Shown here: positions 17,712 through 31,192 of the stretch, piece after piece | Numbering within the stretch: position 1 is the stretch's first letter | How the letters are laid out: every line of letters begins with the position of its first letter | DNA from: a virus | Lineage: Duplodnaviria > Heunggongvirae > Uroviricota > Caudoviricetes | Length of the DNA stretch: 43,981 bases | Direction: 5' to 3' (one strand) | Virus record (IMG/VR): IMGVR_UViG_3300045988_012512 | Location: 1-43,981 of that record | Notes under the pieces: model-generated | The model's database searches: none | Told to the model about the DNA's origin: nothing | What the model saw: the letters and a program-made list of their open reading frames with translations, nothing else | Position numbers and translations under genes: made by a program

Positions 17712-17975
17712 CTATTCCAGAATATTCCTCACGTAATCCTGCAACATGAACACTTTCAGTCTCAGTTGCCGTGTGCATTCGGCGTTCTGAACGTCGATGG
17801 CTAAATCCTCGTCAGCGTCGCTACTTGGCGGTGCCAGTTTGCACGGTGGTTGCATCATCGTCGTATCCGGGGATGGAATTGGCGTTTGCAACGGCGCGGG
17901 ACTTGAGCAGGACGCGAGCATCATCGAAAGTGCACACGCTGCGACCAGGCGTTTTAATGTACTTAACGACTTCAC
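17712..17975 (-). CDS. o-spanin (Rz1-like outer-membrane lipoprotein)
   Basis: Signal peptide with lipobox LAS-C, Pro-rich mature part; start embedded in the i-spanin gene. Confidence 0.7.
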   Translation of the reverse strand: MKSLSTLKRLVAACALSMMLASCSSPAPLQTPIPSPDTTMMQPPCKLAPPSSDADEDLAIDVQNAECTRQLRLKVFMLQDYVRNILE

Positions 17976-18207
17976 GTGTAATTACCTCTGATTTCGTCTT
18001 ACCTTCGTTGTCAGCGGCTGCGGCCTTTGATTCATCCTGCTGCTGCCGTTGTGTTTTCTTCGCTAGCTCAGCCTGTGCTTTCTGCTGTTGCTGCGAAACG
18101 AGATTAGCACGGCCTTCACCCCAGCCGCTGCGGTATTGATAGATGCCGTGTGCGTAGGCCAGGACGACGAAACATGCTCCGGCTACGACAGTTGCTTTAA
18201 GATTCAT
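17821..18207 (-). CDS. i-spanin (Rz-like)
   Basis: N-terminal transmembrane helix then Gln/Ala-rich coiled coil; overlapped architecture with the o-spanin. Confidence 0.65.
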   Translation of the reverse strand: MNLKATVVAGACFVVLAYAHGIYQYRSGWGEGRANLVSQQQQKAQAELAKKTQRQQQDESKAAAADNEGKTKSEVITREVVKYIKTPGRSVCTFDDARVLLKSRAVANANSIPGYDDDATTVQTGTAK

Positions 18208-26968: not shown

Positions 26969-27457
26969 TCAGCCTTTCACCGCACGTCCAATAGCAACCG
27001 CCTCTTGCCACGGTTTACCGTCGAACAGTGCCAGACGTCCAGCGGTACGGCGGCGCAAGCCAAGTAATGGTTTGCCGTTCTGGTTGATGAACAGCGCCAG
27101 CTTGGCCCGCAGTGTCGCAACGTCGCCTGAGCGCAGTGCCTTACCGGTACCGGTAGTAGCTGCGATAACGCCAGCACCCGCGTTAAATACCAGGTCGCAC
27201 ACTGCATCGAACTGCGCCTGTGTCAGCGAATGGTGTGCGGCGGCGTCAACCGCAGCTACGGCCTTAGCCATGTCGCGATTCAGTAACAGGAGGCCTTGGC
27301 CTGGTGTGATGGTCTGCCCGGCCTTAACATGTGGGCCATAGCTTCCGTACCCAATAGTAAGGTACTTCTCATTTGGCGTAGCACGATACGCAGTCCCGCG
27401 GAACCCCTCGAACGCGGCGGTGAAATGCAGTCCATTATCTGAAATATTTCGAGACAC
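26969..27457 (-). CDS. endolysin (GH24 lysozyme / T4 lysozyme-like)
   Basis: LHFTAAFEGFRGTAYRATPNEKYLTIGYG catalytic motif; GGAGG RBS before GTG at 27457 (ORF track extends to 27508). Confidence 0.75.
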   Translation of the reverse strand: MSRNISDNGLHFTAAFEGFRGTAYRATPNEKYLTIGYGSYGPHVKAGQTITPGQGLLLLNRDMAKAVAAVDAAAHHSLTQAQFDAVCDLVFNAGAGVIAATTGTGKALRSGDVATLRAKLALFINQNGKPLLGLRRRTAGRLALFDGKPWQEAVAIGRAVKG

Positions 27458-27707
27458 GCTTATGTCCTCCGTATGACAGCCACGCCTGACGAATCTGGCG
27501 CAGCGCAACTAATGTGATTAATGTCTCAGGCAGCGTTGGTGACACGCTGCCCTGTAACAGGTGGATACATCCGGCGGCGCAGACGATAGCAGTCAGGATA
27601 TAGAGCACCCGGCCGAACAGCCCGTCATCAACGCTGGGATGGTACACATTAAACAGCGATGTACCCCCGATTGCCAGCATACCGCCGAACCAGAATAACT
27701 CATTCAT
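27435..27707 (-). CDS. holin-like membrane protein
   Basis: About 90 aa from ATG 27707 (MNELFWFGGMLAIGG...) with 2-3 hydrophobic helices, immediately upstream of the endolysin. Confidence 0.55.
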   Translation of the reverse strand: MNELFWFGGMLAIGGTSLFNVYHPSVDDGLFGRVLYILTAIVCAAGCIHLLQGSVSPTLPETLITLVALRQIRQAWLSYGGHKRVSKYFR

Positions 27708-28008
27708 CCGGGCCTCCTCGACGTGAGATGTATTCCCCGGCGACGATACCGGAGAGGCGGGAATAGATAGGCATCCAGAGAATAGCGATGATGAAACCCA
27801 GACCAGCGATTTCACGCTCCCCGGTAATGCCGAACCATTGGGCAGCGAGAGGCGCACCGAATACGGCGCAAGCGAAGCCGGTTACAATAAAGAATAAGCC
27901 GTCGATGGGTCCAGAAATAACGGACTTATGTTGTCGTAGTCCGATGACCCCTCCGGCGAGTGCGGCAGCGAGAAGCCAGCCTGTCACTGTTTCAGTAAAT
28001 TTATCCAA
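27700..28008 (-). CDS. holin / antiholin-like membrane protein (three predicted transmembrane helices)
   Basis: 102 aa with three hydrophobic segments; adjacent to the second holin-like gene. Confidence 0.55.
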   Translation of the reverse strand: MDKFTETVTGWLLAAALAGGVIGLRQHKSVISGPIDGLFFIVTGFACAVFGAPLAAQWFGITGEREIAGLGFIIAILWMPIYSRLSGIVAGEYISRRGGPDE

Positions 28009-28083: not shown

Positions 28084-28377
28084 TTATTTATGACGCCAGA
28101 TGTATTGTCGTCTCTGCGGTTTCGTCGGAATATCATCGTATCCGAGCGATTTCCAGTAATTAAATAACCGATTAGCGATTGCAGCGCGTTCCTGCGTTTT
28201 AAACTCACCGAGATTCACGGCCTTCCAGTTCTGGAATCCACAGGCGCGGACAGCTTTGCGTCGGGCCTGAATCTCAGGGTACAGCGCGTTACCCCGACGC
28301 TTGCATATCTGTGTTTTAGCTCTCGGTGACAGCGGCGAGAGGCCGCTTCGTTTCAGGATGTCAGTTGCAAGGCTCAT
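28084..28377 (-). CDS. hypothetical basic protein
   Basis: Likely start at ATG 28377 (ATGA overlap); ORF track extends to 28422. Confidence 0.35.
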   Translation of the reverse strand: MSLATDILKRSGLSPLSPRAKTQICKRRGNALYPEIQARRKAVRACGFQNWKAVNLGEFKTQERAAIANRLFNYWKSLGYDDIPTKPQRRQYIWRHK

Positions 28378-28565
28378 ATACCGAGAATCCCGCTGGCCAT
28401 TTCTTCGGTAGCTTTCGAACACGGCTCATACATTACCTGTTCAGCGAAGTTACGCAGCTTATGCTCAAGCGCCGCGTAATCATCGTATGTCACATAGTCG
28501 CCGTAGTCCCATTTAGCCATCTCAGGCTCTTCCCATCTGGTAGATAATTCGTATCTCTGTACCAT
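28374..28565 (-). CDS. small protein, paralogue B (MVQRYEL...)
   Basis: Begins with the same ATGGT-CAGAGATA nucleotide string as the adjacent paralogue. Confidence 0.35.
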   Translation of the reverse strand: MVQRYELSTRWEEPEMAKWDYGDYVTYDDYAALEHKLRNFAEQVMYEPCSKATEEMASGILGI

Positions 28566-28763
28566 CACTCCACCCCTTCCACATGTGTAACTGACCCACA
28601 GTTCGCGCACTCGACGTAATCCGGGAACTGGTCTTTGTATTTCTGCAACTCGGCTTTTAGTTTCGCATAGTCCCTGTAGCCAACCCATTCACCGTCTGCG
28701 TCTTTCTCTAAATCGATATGCCCGGTAACCCAGTCTTCTTTTAAATCATATCTCTGCACCATG
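28565..28763 (-). CDS. small protein, paralogue A (MVQRYDL..., C-terminal CANCG)
   Basis: AGGAG RBS before ATG 28763; tandem paralogue of 28374..28565. Confidence 0.4.
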
Positions 28764-28967
28764 TTATCTCTCCTGTTTACCAAGTCGCTTAGGTGAGCAG
28801 ATAGCGCGTACCTCTGAATCGTTTGGCTTGTCACCCTGAAACAGGAAGTGCGCGTTCTCTGCGGCGCGTGCCGCTGACTGGCACGCCTCCATCGAATAAA
28901 ACGTTTCTGATGCAGCGAGTTGCATCTGGCCTGCGGACAATACCCAGATAAATAAGATGCTGGTCAT
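28764..28967 (-). CDS. small protein with N-terminal hydrophobic signal or anchor
   Basis: MTSILFIWVLSAGQMQLAAS hydrophobic N-terminus, two Cys; ATGA coupling. Confidence 0.4.
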   Translation of the reverse strand: MTSILFIWVLSAGQMQLAASETFYSMEACQSAARAAENAHFLFQGDKPNDSEVRAICSPKRLGKQER

Positions 28968-29512
28968 GTCGTCTCTCCACATCTGCGGCACACAAAATAA
29001 TCCTCGTCGGCATCAAGAACCCAATCATGATCACATTCCTGAGTATCGTTTTTCGGTTTATATTCCTTGTCGTCCCACTCACGTTCACCACATTTAGAGC
29101 AAAGCTCGCTACCAGGAACGTTGTTCGGATTGCCTTCGCTGAGAAACAACCCAGGCATAATAATCCAAGAGTGCTCGCATTCCTGGGTATCTTCTTTACG
29201 GCAACCAGATTGCTCCGGCGGTACAGGCGTCTGGGTGCACCGACAATTTACCGTTGGCCCGGGCGCATGTTCGCCAACCACGTAGCTCTGGCCCCTAGAA
29301 ATGTACCCACCCTTACGCACAAGTTTGTAAGCCTCTACATCCCCGGTGGCGGTAGCCAGCGCCATATGTAACTCCTTAATCTGCACCGAAGCATCACGTA
29401 ACTGATTCTTAAGTGACTGCACCTCATGAGCCAGGTCTTCGCTCCGGCTGTTATTTACCTGCTGCCGTAGCTGGTCGATCAGGTACTCGAATATTTCGTT
29501 TTTGTTACTCAT
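28964..29512 (-). CDS. coiled-coil protein with two zinc-ribbon-like repeats
   Basis: QECEHSWII...CSKCGERE and QECDHDWVL...CRRCGET; start at ATG 29512 (ORF track 29533). Confidence 0.45.
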   Translation of the reverse strand: MSNKNEIFEYLIDQLRQQVNNSRSEDLAHEVQSLKNQLRDASVQIKELHMALATATGDVEAYKLVRKGGYISRGQSYVVGEHAPGPTVNCRCTQTPVPPEQSGCRKEDTQECEHSWIIMPGLFLSEGNPNNVPGSELCSKCGEREWDDKEYKPKNDTQECDHDWVLDADEDYFVCRRCGETT

Positions 29513-29642
29513 CAGCTTCACCCCTTTTCTCATCCACCCCGACTAGCAGCGATTTAGTGTCGCCGTCACACACCGAAGTGCTACTAATTATTTCGTAAGC
29601 GTCTACCAGTTCGCCTAAAGTCCAGCTACCGTACCAGCCCAT
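29505..29642 (-). CDS. hypothetical small protein (45 aa)
   Basis: GAGAGGAG RBS before ATG 29642; first gene after the promoter at 29673. Confidence 0.3.
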   Translation of the reverse strand: MGWYGSWTLGELVDAYEIISSTSVCDGDTKSLLVGVDEKRGEADE

Positions 29643-30800: not shown

Positions 30801-31152
30801 GAGAATAGTTACGTTGCCGTTGTGATTCTTTCGTTTCTTTAAAGAGTACGCAACGCAGTGGGTGGGCGATAGCCCACCCCAGCGGAGTGAAGTACTCTCT
30901 ACCTTGCTTACGGCAACTAAAGAAACTTTTAATTATCAAGTACTTATGAATGGAGGTAAAATTTAAATAGACGGGGTCTTTCTTGTCACTTGCTGTTACT
31001 TTTAGGAAACTTAGATACTAACGTTACCAAGAGTACTGTTTAGCGCCCCGCTTTAGGGCGGGGCTTTAAGTACCCGAGACTTAAGAATAATGTTTCTAAG
31101 TAATTCTGAACTAAGGCCCTTCGATACGTTGATTTTACAGCTACATTTTATT
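30801..31152. promoter_or_regulatory. divergent control region with nested palindromes, AGTAC repeats and a conserved hairpin
   Basis: About 350 bp without credible ORFs between divergent operons; inverted repeat AGAGTAC/GTACTCT around an 8-bp GC hairpin; hairpin element at 31042..31068. Confidence 0.5.
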
Positions 31153-31192
31153 TTGTCAATAGGTTGTGTTTAGTTATTATAGGTGTTATAGT
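31153..31192 (+). promoter_or_regulatory. tandem sigma70-type promoters (TTGTCA-16-TATTAT and TTGTGT-17-TATAGT) for the plus-strand operon
   Basis: Hexamers with canonical spacing upstream of the gene at 31222. Confidence 0.45.

What the first reader, a model, noticed from the sequence alone, without database searches (positions are those of the whole stretch)
28764..28967. Small protein with an N-terminal hydrophobic signal or anchor, just upstream of the lysis genes
The 67-aa product begins MTSILFIWVLSAGQMQLAAS followed by a polar domain with two Cys. It has no positive N-region, so it may be a membrane anchor rather than a cleaved signal. A periplasm-facing early protein could act in lysis timing or superinfection exclusion.
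Basis: inference. Interest (0 to 1): 0.35.

Follow-up and report, generated by a model that had tools for sequence, protein, structure and literature searches.

The report
Conserved small phage protein, function unknown
This is a real 67-residue gene found in hundreds of Kagunavirus and Jerseyvirus phages, but its greasy N-terminus behaves like a conserved working part of the protein rather than a membrane anchor or ordinary export signal, and nothing but position links it to lysis.

Summary
The ORF is real. It lies on the minus strand, 28967..28764, with a GGAGA ribosome-binding site and an ATGA overlap with the upstream gene. It matches phrog_3766 (function unknown) over its full length, occurs in 475 sequenced Guernseyvirinae genomes, and has dN/dS 0.19. 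The window is a Kagunavirus.

The membrane-anchor reading fails: the uncharged N-terminal stretch is only 13-21 residues across the family, with a summed Hessa insertion score of about +5 kcal/mol. A cleavable Sec signal is possible but atypical:
- None of 62 members has a basic residue in the first 12 positions, whereas this phage's own spanins do.
- The position of any permissive cleavage site is not conserved.
- Residues 2-13 are the most constrained part of the protein (dN/dS 0.09). The TM anchor of the same phages' i-spanin evolves about 3x faster than its own periplasmic domain.

AlphaFold, at low to moderate confidence, models the N-terminus as a beta-hairpin rather than a signal-type helix. 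The two invariant cysteines are the best argument for export.

My best reading, at modest confidence, is a small alpha/beta accessory protein whose hydrophobic N-terminus is part of the fold. The lysis link is positional only; two holins, the endolysin and both spanins are all present without it. Ordinary orphan gene, low interest.

The parts
28764..28967 (-). g67 coding sequence (67 codons plus TAA stop); member of phrog_3766
   Evidence: ORF and translation; phrog_3766 full length, E 3.8e-36; 475 phage genomes; dN/dS 0.19
28974..28978 (-). Shine-Dalgarno-like GGAGA, 6 nt upstream of the ATG. It lies inside the 3' end of the upstream 189-aa gene, whose TGA stop overlaps the start as ATGA.
   Evidence: Read directly from the sequence; purine-rich motifs at the same place in relatives
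28929..28964 (-). Codons 2-13, TSILFIWVLSAG: uncharged hydrophobic N-terminal segment ending in the near-invariant Gly13. This is the most constrained part of the protein.
   Evidence: dN/dS 0.09 with dS 1.46; no K/R/D/E in the first 12 residues of any of 62 members; Gly at position 13 in 58 of 61; modelled as a beta-strand by AlphaFold
28908..28928 (-). Codons 14-20, QMQLAAS: variable linker. It contains the candidate signal-peptidase site AAS|E.
   Evidence: dN/dS 0.38, the highest in the protein. Relatives have QLHLEGT, VLAPPTT, VLERPVT or VLQKPVV here, with length changes and a 5-residue deletion spanning positions 11-15 in L064
28782..28907 (-). Codons 21-62: conserved polar domain. It consists of ETFY, an Ala-rich amphipathic helix (about 26-43, with conserved R34/E37/N38), a variable loop and the strand-like EVRAICSPKRL.
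   Evidence: Conservation; helix predicted in both AlphaFold runs, C-terminal strand only in the first; dN/dS 0.15-0.23
28881..28883 (-). Cys29 codon (TGC), invariant
   Evidence: Invariant in alignments A1-A4, down to 34-44% identity
28797..28799 (-). Cys57 codon, invariant in all intact members
   Evidence: The only exception in A4 is P0119, whose C-terminus is frameshifted.

Best explanation
g67 is a near-core accessory gene of Guernseyvirinae siphophages. It encodes a small alpha/beta protein whose hydrophobic N-terminus (MTS[IV]LFIW[VI][LM]..G) is an integral, sequence-specific part of the folded protein, not a disposable export signal or a bilayer-spanning anchor.

The most likely arrangement is a beta-strand or hairpin packed against the Ala-rich helix. 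It probably needs self-association to bury the second face of the sheet.

I infer that it is made from the long leftward operon of small genes that starts at a sigma-70-like promoter near 31150. I also infer that it stays in the cytoplasm or at the inner face of the membrane, and that it acts by binding a host or phage partner through the conserved polar face (R34, E37, N38) and the basic C-terminal PKRLxK tail.

Shown: the gene is real and under purifying selection; the N-terminus is the most constrained segment; the segment is too short and too polar to span a membrane; there is no basic n-region anywhere in the family.

Inferred: the fold, the compartment, oligomerisation, binding as the mode of action, and early expression. 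The target is unknown.
For: - Selection: residues 2-13 have dN/dS 0.09, against 0.38 for the linker and 0.15-0.23 for the rest, with high dS (1.46), so the constraint is on the protein and not the DNA.
- Internal control: in the same phage lineage the i-spanin TM anchor has dN/dS 0.53 against 0.17 for its periplasmic domain. A generic membrane-targeting segment there evolves faster than the functional domain, the opposite of g67.
- None of 62 diverse members has K or R in the first 12 residues. This phage's own exported proteins start MNLK... and MKSLSTLKR....
- Both AlphaFold runs model residues about 4-23 as a beta-hairpin rather than a detached helix. Those residues are among the best-scoring blocks (78-80 in run 1, 64-69 in run 2).
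- BFVD models of two family members, predicted independently, superpose on model 1 with TM about 0.7. Dozens of other uncharacterised 50-70-aa phage proteins share the beta-beta-alpha-beta shape.
- Position 15 is always hydrophobic and position 17 mostly so. This i, i+2 pattern fits a strand pairing with strand 1 (by inspection).
- The gene sits in a nin-like block of small, mostly zinc-ribbon or DUF551/DUF2737/NinH-type cytoplasmic proteins.
- The CPT annotation of phage Shelanagig gives a TMHMM note for the holin but none for this gene. This is weak evidence, and they used a longer start.
Against: - Eight to ten consecutive strongly hydrophobic residues at the extreme N-terminus, followed by Gly/Pro and a polar domain, is the classic export-signal layout and is uncommon in soluble proteins.
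- Exactly two Cys are invariant down to about 35% identity, with no other metal ligands conserved. This is most simply explained by a periplasmic disulfide.
- The structure models are weak. Run 1 gave one model at pLDDT 73 and four at 47-55. Run 2, with the deeper alignment, gave pLDDT 56-61 and pTM 0.32 and lost the C-terminal strand.
- Strand 2 of the model coincides with the least conserved, Pro-rich, length-variable linker.
- Permissive -3/-1 sites exist in 60 of 61 members.
- No dedicated signal-peptide or topology predictor could be run.
Confidence: 0.42

Rival explanations
1. Exported mini-protein. Residues 1-13 or 1-20 act as an unusual charge-less Sec signal that signal peptidase I removes, at SAG|Q or AAS|E. 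This releases a 47-54-residue periplasmic helix-plus-strand domain stapled by a Cys29-Cys57 disulfide. That domain would bind an envelope target, for example to block a receptor or injection (superinfection exclusion) or to modulate peptidoglycan or holin function.
For: - There is an h-region-like stretch: Kyte-Doolittle 3.24 over ILFIWVL and 2.05 over 11 residues.
- Helix-breaking Gly13 or prolines follow it.
- Permissive small-residue -3/-1 sites occur after residue 13 in 44 of 61 members and at position 16 or later in 49 of 61. Only 1 of 61 has none.
- Exactly two invariant Cys lie in the would-be mature part.
- The 'mature' part is polar and near neutral.
- In one distant phage (L072) the homolog is 13 nt upstream of an Rz/Rz1 spanin pair and near an Imm_superinfect membrane protein.
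Against: - No basic residue occurs in the n-region in any of 62 members. Nearly all E. coli Sec signals have one (established knowledge), and this phage's own spanins do.
- The putative signal is the most conserved segment (dN/dS 0.09). Disposable targeting segments drift, as in the i-spanin TM control at 0.53.
- The position of the cleavage site is not conserved, and 12 of 61 members have no site at position 16 or later. They would need a 13-residue signal, which is unusually short.
- The -3 residue of the Gly13 site is N, Q or M in 17 of 61 members.
- AlphaFold does not model a signal-type helix.
- A 47-residue helix-plus-one-strand domain would leave a broad Ala/Phe/Leu face uncovered (inference).
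Confidence: 0.22
2. Uncleaved, membrane-associated small protein. The conserved hydrophobic N-terminus stays attached and embeds in or against the inner membrane, either as a monotopic anchor or as a weak, releasable SAR-like anchor. It would place the polar domain next to a specific membrane partner, for instance as an antiholin-like regulator of one of the two holins, as with T4 RI.
For: - Sequence-specific conservation of the hydrophobic segment is expected if it contacts a defined membrane partner.
- The second half of the segment (SAGQMQLAAS) is Gly/Ala/Ser-rich, like SAR domains (by inspection).
- Synteny with the holin-endolysin cassette is conserved across Guernseyvirinae.
- The phage has two holin-like genes and no identified antiholin.
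Against: - The segment is too short and too polar to span the bilayer. The first charge falls at position 14-18 in 20 of 61 members, the Hessa 19-mer sum has a median of +5.0 kcal/mol, and the KD 19-mer median is 1.28.
- There is no basic cytoplasmic flank.
- Three unrelated small genes separate it from the holin, and that spacing varies.
- In L069 and L070 the homolog is not adjacent to any lysis gene.
- There is no sequence or fold similarity to RI or to any known antiholin.
Confidence: 0.24
3. Not a functional gene: a chance or decaying ORF in a mosaic region.
For: - Some contigs carry truncated or chimeric versions that fuse the upstream gene to the C-terminal half (P0040, P0052, P0063, L067) or are frameshifted (P0119, P0038).
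Against: - 474 of 475 phage records carry it at 80% coverage or more.
- dN/dS is 0.19 with saturating synonymous change.
- The start, ribosome-binding site and length are conserved.
- About 95% of Salmonella Jersey-like genomes with this terminase type have it: 351 against 368.
Confidence: 0.01

Closest known systems
PHROG family phrog_3766 (unknown function): 'hypothetical protein' genes of Kagunavirus, Jerseyvirus and Cornellvirus, e.g. fBC-Eco01 gp64, fTaEco01 TE1_057, Shelanagig gp52
   Same: Full-length match, E 3.8e-36. Same length and same place in the genome. Identity is 55-99%.
   Different: Nothing. This is the same gene. No member has a tested function, and every public source calls it hypothetical.
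Sec-type (signal peptidase I) signal peptides of Gram-negative exported proteins
   Same: There is a hydrophobic stretch of about 10 residues at the N-terminus, followed by Gly/Pro and by small residues that could serve as -3/-1.
   Different: There is no basic n-region in any member. The segment is more conserved than the rest of the protein. The cleavage-site position is not conserved.
T4 RI antiholin (SAR-anchored periplasmic regulator of holin T), recalled from the literature
   Same: It is a small protein with an N-terminal weakly hydrophobic segment and a polar domain containing two Cys. It is encoded by a phage with holin genes nearby.
   Different: No sequence or fold similarity was found. 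The hydrophobic segment is shorter than a SAR domain and lacks the basic flank. It is not adjacent to the holin.
Receptor-blocking or superinfection-exclusion envelope proteins (T5 Llp, phi80/N15 Cor lipoproteins, T4 Imm and Sp), recalled from the literature
   Same: These are small phage proteins with a hydrophobic N-terminus, expressed outside the structural module.
   Different: There is no lipobox: the first Cys is residue 29. There are no TM helices and no family match. The gene is not next to the receptor-binding genes.
Small cytoplasmic alpha/beta phage inhibitors such as T7 Gp2 (PDB 4lk0_M) and T4 Dmd (PDB 5hy3_B)
   Same: Similar size and a similar sheet-plus-one-helix topology to model 1. 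They are encoded among early small genes.
   Different: The Foldseek matches are not significant: E 1.1 and 2.9, TM 0.40-0.42, probability 0.18-0.25. There is no sequence similarity. These proteins do not have an all-hydrophobic first strand.

Membership tests
phrog_3766 (orphan phage protein family) | Significant full-length match to the family profile | tested here: met
   E 3.8e-36, residues 1-66 of the protein against profile positions 1-66 of 66. The distant homolog in L072 also matches, E 1.6e-21.
Sec/SPase I cleavable signal peptide | Positively charged n-region (at least one K/R before the hydrophobic core) | tested here: not met
   No K/R in the first 12 residues in 62 of 62 members. 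M1 was confirmed as the start, so no upstream charged extension exists.
Sec/SPase I cleavable signal peptide | Hydrophobic h-region of about 7-15 residues | tested here: met
   ILFIWVL has KD 3.24; SILFIWVLSAG has KD 2.05. The feature is conserved in all members.
Sec/SPase I cleavable signal peptide | c-region with small uncharged residues at -3 and -1, at a consistent distance after the h-region | tested here: inconclusive
   A permissive rule finds a site after residue 13 in 44 of 61 members and at position 16 or later in 49 of 61; 1 of 61 has none. The position is not conserved, and the rule is loose enough to be met often by chance. No trained predictor was available.
Signal-anchor / SAR domain (as in T4 RI and SAR endolysins) | Uncharged segment long enough to span the bilayer (about 18-20 residues), with a basic cytoplasmic flank | tested here: not met
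   The first charged residue falls at position 14-22 (at 18 or earlier in 20 of 61). The Hessa 19-mer sum is +4.6 here and has a family median of +5.0 kcal/mol. The KD 19-mer value is 1.37 here, median 1.28. There is no basic flank.
Bacterial/phage lipoprotein (Cor, Llp, o-spanin type) | Lipobox [LVI][ASTVI][GAS]C at the end of the signal | tested here: not met
   There is no Cys before residue 29 in the window protein or in 60 of 61 other aligned members; P0023 has Cys13 in place of Gly13, preceded by TLTA, which is not a lipobox. The window's real o-spanin has LASC.
Spanin (i-, o- or u-spanin) | N-terminal TM plus coiled-coil periplasmic domain, or a lipoprotein; one set per phage | tested here: not met
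   The i-spanin (17821-18207) and embedded o-spanin (17712-17975) are present elsewhere in the window. The literature places Kagunavirus spanins there too (PMC9825357 and PMC7203180). g67 has neither architecture.
Holin / antiholin | At least one TM domain, or demonstrated binding to a holin | tested here: not met
   No TM-grade segment. The holins are phrog_2359 and phrog_2508 at 27435-28008. Binding cannot be tested with these tools.
Periplasmic disulfide-bonded protein | Cys29-Cys57 disulfide formed in vivo, DsbA-dependent | not testable with these tools
   Only the invariance of the two Cys and a compatible register in a moderate-confidence model (inference) are available.

The most novel reading that the evidence does not exclude
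g67 is exported despite having no basic n-region, through a short, sequence-specific, charge-less N-terminal export or insertion motif (MTS[IV]LFIW..G) conserved across about 500 phages. It then acts in the envelope as a disulfide-stapled mini-protein that tunes holin triggering or excludes superinfecting phage. That would be both a new small lysis or exclusion regulator of Guernseyvirinae and an unusual targeting signal.
Probability: 0.1. Interest if true: 0.55.

Novelty: already known. Interest (0 to 1): 0.18.

Why it matters
Jerseyvirus and Kagunavirus phages are widely isolated for Salmonella and E. coli biocontrol and therapy, and this gene is in nearly all of them with no known role. Knowing whether it is cytoplasmic (a host-takeover or anti-defence binder) or exported (exclusion or lysis control) would help in annotating and engineering these phages. 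As it stands, though, it is one of many conserved orphan small genes. This window shows nothing that the hundreds of existing 'hypothetical protein' annotations do not already hold. The useful outcome here is negative: the membrane-anchor and lysis reading should not be carried into annotation on the strength of the hydrophobic N-terminus alone.

Tried and rejected
- **Family and sequence searches:** Pfam, NCBIfam and a PDB sequence search with the 62-sequence profile gave no match.
- **Foldseek against the PDB with model 1:** nothing significant, best E 0.42. The T7 Gp2 and T4 Dmd resemblances are generic and were rejected as evidence.
- **Exhaustive HMM search of 1.84 billion representatives:** it returned only the family itself, fragments, chimeras and low-complexity long proteins. 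There was no link to a characterised family.
- **Second AlphaFold run with a deeper alignment (62 sequences):** I hoped it would settle whether the N-terminus packs into the fold. Confidence fell instead (pLDDT 61, pTM 0.32), so the fold is not established.
- **Spanin or disruptin hypothesis:** rejected, because a canonical i-/o-spanin pair is present at 17712-18207 (PMC9825357).
- **Lipoprotein hypothesis:** rejected, no lipobox.
- **Upstream GTG start** (75 aa, MPQMWRDD..., which would add an Arg): rejected, because relatives have in-frame stops just upstream of M1.
- **A beta-clamp-binding-like QLxL motif in the linker:** considered by eye and dropped, because the linker is the least conserved segment.
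- **Terminase as a denominator for 'core gene' status:** not clean, because Kagunavirus and Jerseyvirus TerL are only about 54% identical. Only a rough 351/368 for Salmonella phages can be quoted.
- **Literature searches** (Kagunavirus + spanin; Guernseyvirinae + signal peptide): nothing on this gene.
- **Source names for five clusters:** all 'hypothetical protein'.
- **Link to lysis genes in distant phages:** adjacent to Rz/Rz1 in L072 but not in L069 or L070. With three related contigs this is not evidence.

Full report
**1. What is there**

The finding's coordinates hold a 67-codon ORF on the minus strand: ATG at 28967-28965 and TAA at 28766-28764. It encodes MTSILFIWVLSAGQMQLAASETFYSMEACQSAARAAENAHFLFQGDKPNDSEVRAICSPKRLGKQER. 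A GGAGA motif lies 6 nt upstream. The ATG overlaps the TGA of the upstream 189-aa gene as ATGA, and the next gene's ATG follows 1 nt after the stop. This is the tight packing typical of a phage operon.

The window is a Kagunavirus (Guernseyvirinae). Its closest annotated relatives are Escherichia phages K1H, G AB-2017, fTaEco01 and fBC-Eco01, where the same 204-nt gene is annotated 'hypothetical protein'.

**2. It is a real gene**

- The protein matches phrog_3766 (unknown function) end to end, E 3.8e-36. It has no Pfam or NCBIfam match.
- tblastn finds it in 475 phage records, 474 of them near full length: Salmonella 351, Escherichia 100, and a few Klebsiella, Raoultella, Enterobacter and Proteus.
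- Over 64 distinct DNA versions from 65 IMG/VR loci and two GenBank relatives, dN/dS is 0.19 at dS about 0.9.
- M1 is the true start. In many relatives an in-frame stop lies 0-5 codons upstream with no other start codon. The longer 72-86-aa calls in some databases are therefore over-extensions.

**3. Family anatomy**

A profile search of 5.8 billion proteins and an exhaustive HMM search of 1.84 billion representatives found only this family. Its most divergent members are about 35-45% identical. A 62-sequence alignment (A4) shows five features:

1. An uncharged N-terminus, MT[ST][IVL]LFIW[VIT][LM], with no K, R, D or E in the first 12 residues of any member.
2. A near-invariant Gly13, present in 58 of 61.
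3. A linker (residues 14-20) that varies in sequence and length and often carries prolines or charges. Examples are QMQLAAS, QLHLEGT, VLAPPTT, VLERPVT and VLQKPVV, and one contig has a 5-residue deletion spanning positions 11-15.
4. A conserved ETFY-x-LEAC-x-AAR-x-AEN helix, then a variable loop, then a (Q/E)VRA(Y/I/F)C(S/N)(P/T)KRL segment.
5. Exactly two cysteines, Cys29 and Cys57, invariant in every intact member.

**4. Is the N-terminus a membrane anchor?**

No. The strongly hydrophobic run is about 10 residues. The best 19-residue window has Kyte-Doolittle 1.37, and the position-independent Hessa sum is +4.6 kcal/mol. Across the family the first charged residue falls at position 14-22, and at 18 or earlier in 20 of 61 members. 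The median Hessa sum is +5.0 and the median KD value is 1.28.

**5. Is it a cleavable signal peptide?**

Possible, but atypical.

For it:
- There is an h-region-like stretch followed by Gly/Pro.
- Under a permissive -3/-1 rule, a site exists after residue 13 in 44 of 61 members and at position 16 or later in 49 of 61. Only one member has none.
- The two invariant Cys fit a periplasmic disulfide.

Against it:
- The basic n-region is absent across the whole family. The phage's own exported proteins begin MNLKATVV... (i-spanin) and MKSLSTLKR... (o-spanin).
- The position of the putative cleavage site is not conserved.
- Selection runs the wrong way for a disposable signal. Residues 2-13 are the most constrained part of the protein (dN/dS 0.09, dS 1.46), the linker is the least (0.38), and the rest is 0.15-0.23.

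As an internal control I measured the i-spanin in the same phage lineage over 44 distinct sequences. Its TM anchor has dN/dS 0.53 against 0.17 for the non-overlapped periplasmic domain. Generic targeting segments in these genomes therefore drift about three times faster than the functional domain. g67 shows the reverse.

These are pairwise Nei-Gojobori estimates on related sequences. They are descriptive, not a formal test.

**6. Structure**

AlphaFold with 16 close homologs gave one model at pLDDT 73 (the other four were 47-55). Its topology was strand 4-12, strand 15-23, helix 26-43, strand 51-59. With 62 diverse sequences, all five models were weak (pLDDT 56-61, pTM 0.32). They still had an N-terminal hairpin and the helix, but no C-terminal strand.

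In neither run is the N-terminus a detached helix, the way signal peptides are usually drawn, and it scores among the best blocks. However, strand 2 of the model coincides with the variable, Pro-rich linker, which weakens the model.

Foldseek found nothing significant in the PDB: best E 0.42, with T7 Gp2 and T4 Dmd at TM about 0.4. In BFVD, two family members predicted independently superpose at TM about 0.7. Many uncharacterised 50-70-aa phage proteins share the shape at about 20% identity, and none has a known function. The structure evidence leans towards 'part of the fold' but does not settle it.

**7. Context and the lysis idea**

In the 65 IMG/VR loci and the two GenBank relatives the order is g67, then 0-3 variable small genes (including the MVQRY paralogs), then a basic 97-aa protein (phrog_9632), then holin(s), then endolysin. 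This holds even where g67 is only 55% identical; the 97-aa protein was detected in all but one short contig, L065. In the window, three genes and about 0.76 kb separate g67 from the class II holin at 28008.

An 11/12 sigma-70-like promoter lies at 31159-31132 on the same strand. The simple scan finds no terminator between it and the endolysin. The gene may therefore be co-transcribed with everything downstream, but timing is unknown.

The lysis set is complete without g67: two holins, an endolysin and an i-/o-spanin pair at 17712-18207. This agrees with published Kagunavirus annotations (PMC9825357 and PMC7203180).

In three distant phages of about 50-54 kb with a different capsid module, the results are mixed. 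In L072 the homolog lies 13 nt upstream of an Rz/Rz1 pair and near an Imm_superinfect protein. In L069 and L070 it is the first or second gene of an operon next to capsid genes. The lysis association is thus positional, holds only within one subfamily, and is not evidence of function.

**8. Verdict**

| Reading | Confidence |
|---|---|
| Small alpha/beta accessory protein with the hydrophobic N-terminus as an integral, sequence-specific element; probably cytoplasmic and self-associating; acts by binding a partner through the conserved R34/E37/N38 face and basic tail | about 0.4 |
| Charge-less cleavable signal giving a disulfide-stapled periplasmic mini-protein | about 0.2 |
| Uncleaved, membrane-associated protein, possibly an antiholin-like regulator | about 0.25 |

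The gene family is already catalogued (phrog_3766, hundreds of GenBank 'hypothetical protein' entries) and this window adds nothing unusual to it. Interest is low. PhoA/LacZ fusions, mass of the mature protein, a DsbA-dependent alkylation shift and a deletion phenotype would settle it quickly.

Noticed in passing
window 28374-28762 (-): Two tandem paralogous small genes (MVQRYDLKEDW..., 65 aa, ending in CANCG; and MVQRYELSTRW..., about 63 aa) lie directly downstream of g67. The first has a weak hit to Lar-like restriction alleviation protein (phrog_3592, E 0.0098). Copy number varies from 0 to 3 among relatives.
   Followed up: partly
window 28084-28377 (-): A very basic 97-aa protein (phrog_9632, unknown function) is detected between g67 and the holin in 64 of the 65 IMG/VR loci and both GenBank relatives; the short contig L065 has no hit. 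A 75-nt gap with no predicted terminator follows it. Its position resembles that of a late-gene regulator in front of a lysis cassette. This was not tested.
   Followed up: partly
window 28964-29533 (-); proteins P0040, P0052, P0063; locus L067: The upstream 189-aa gene (coiled-coil N-terminus, three CxxC-type zinc-ribbon-like repeats) is highly variable among relatives (25-99% identity). In several contigs its N-terminal part is fused in frame to the C-terminal half of g67, which suggests a recombination or deletion hot spot at this junction.
   Followed up: partly
window 17712-18207 (-): The spanin pair (i-spanin of 128 aa, with an embedded o-spanin of 87 aa carrying the lipobox LASC) lies about 9 kb from the holin-endolysin cassette, among structural genes. 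The i-spanin TM anchor evolves about 3x faster than its periplasmic domain (dN/dS 0.53 vs 0.17).
   Followed up: yes
window 31132-31180 (both strands): Back-to-back sigma-70-like promoters (11/12 on the minus strand, 10/12 on the plus strand) lie in the gap between the leftward small-gene/lysis/structural genes and the rightward HTH-helicase-replication genes. This is the likely divergent early control region.
   Followed up: no
window 27435-28008 (-): There are two consecutive holin-like genes (phrog_2359, TTG start at 28008; phrog_2508, starting about 27707), overlapping each other by 8 nt; the endolysin ORF, whose true start is ambiguous, overlaps the second holin's 3' end.
   Followed up: no
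L072 4244-5751; L069 and L070: Distant g67 homologs occur in phages of about 50-54 kb with a PF09950 capsid, a ParE-like gene and queuosine-related genes. In L072 the gene sits in a run of envelope-type genes: an Imm_superinfect protein, a 67-aa protein with an N-terminal TM, a zinc-ribbon protein, the g67 homolog, then Rz with an embedded Rz1.
   Followed up: partly
protein cluster of P0104 (member P0184): One family member is recorded on a 1.03-Mb Salmonella Montevideo contig, and many others on about 43-kb contigs inside Salmonella isolate assemblies. This could reflect carried or pseudolysogenic phage, or assembly joins.
   Followed up: no
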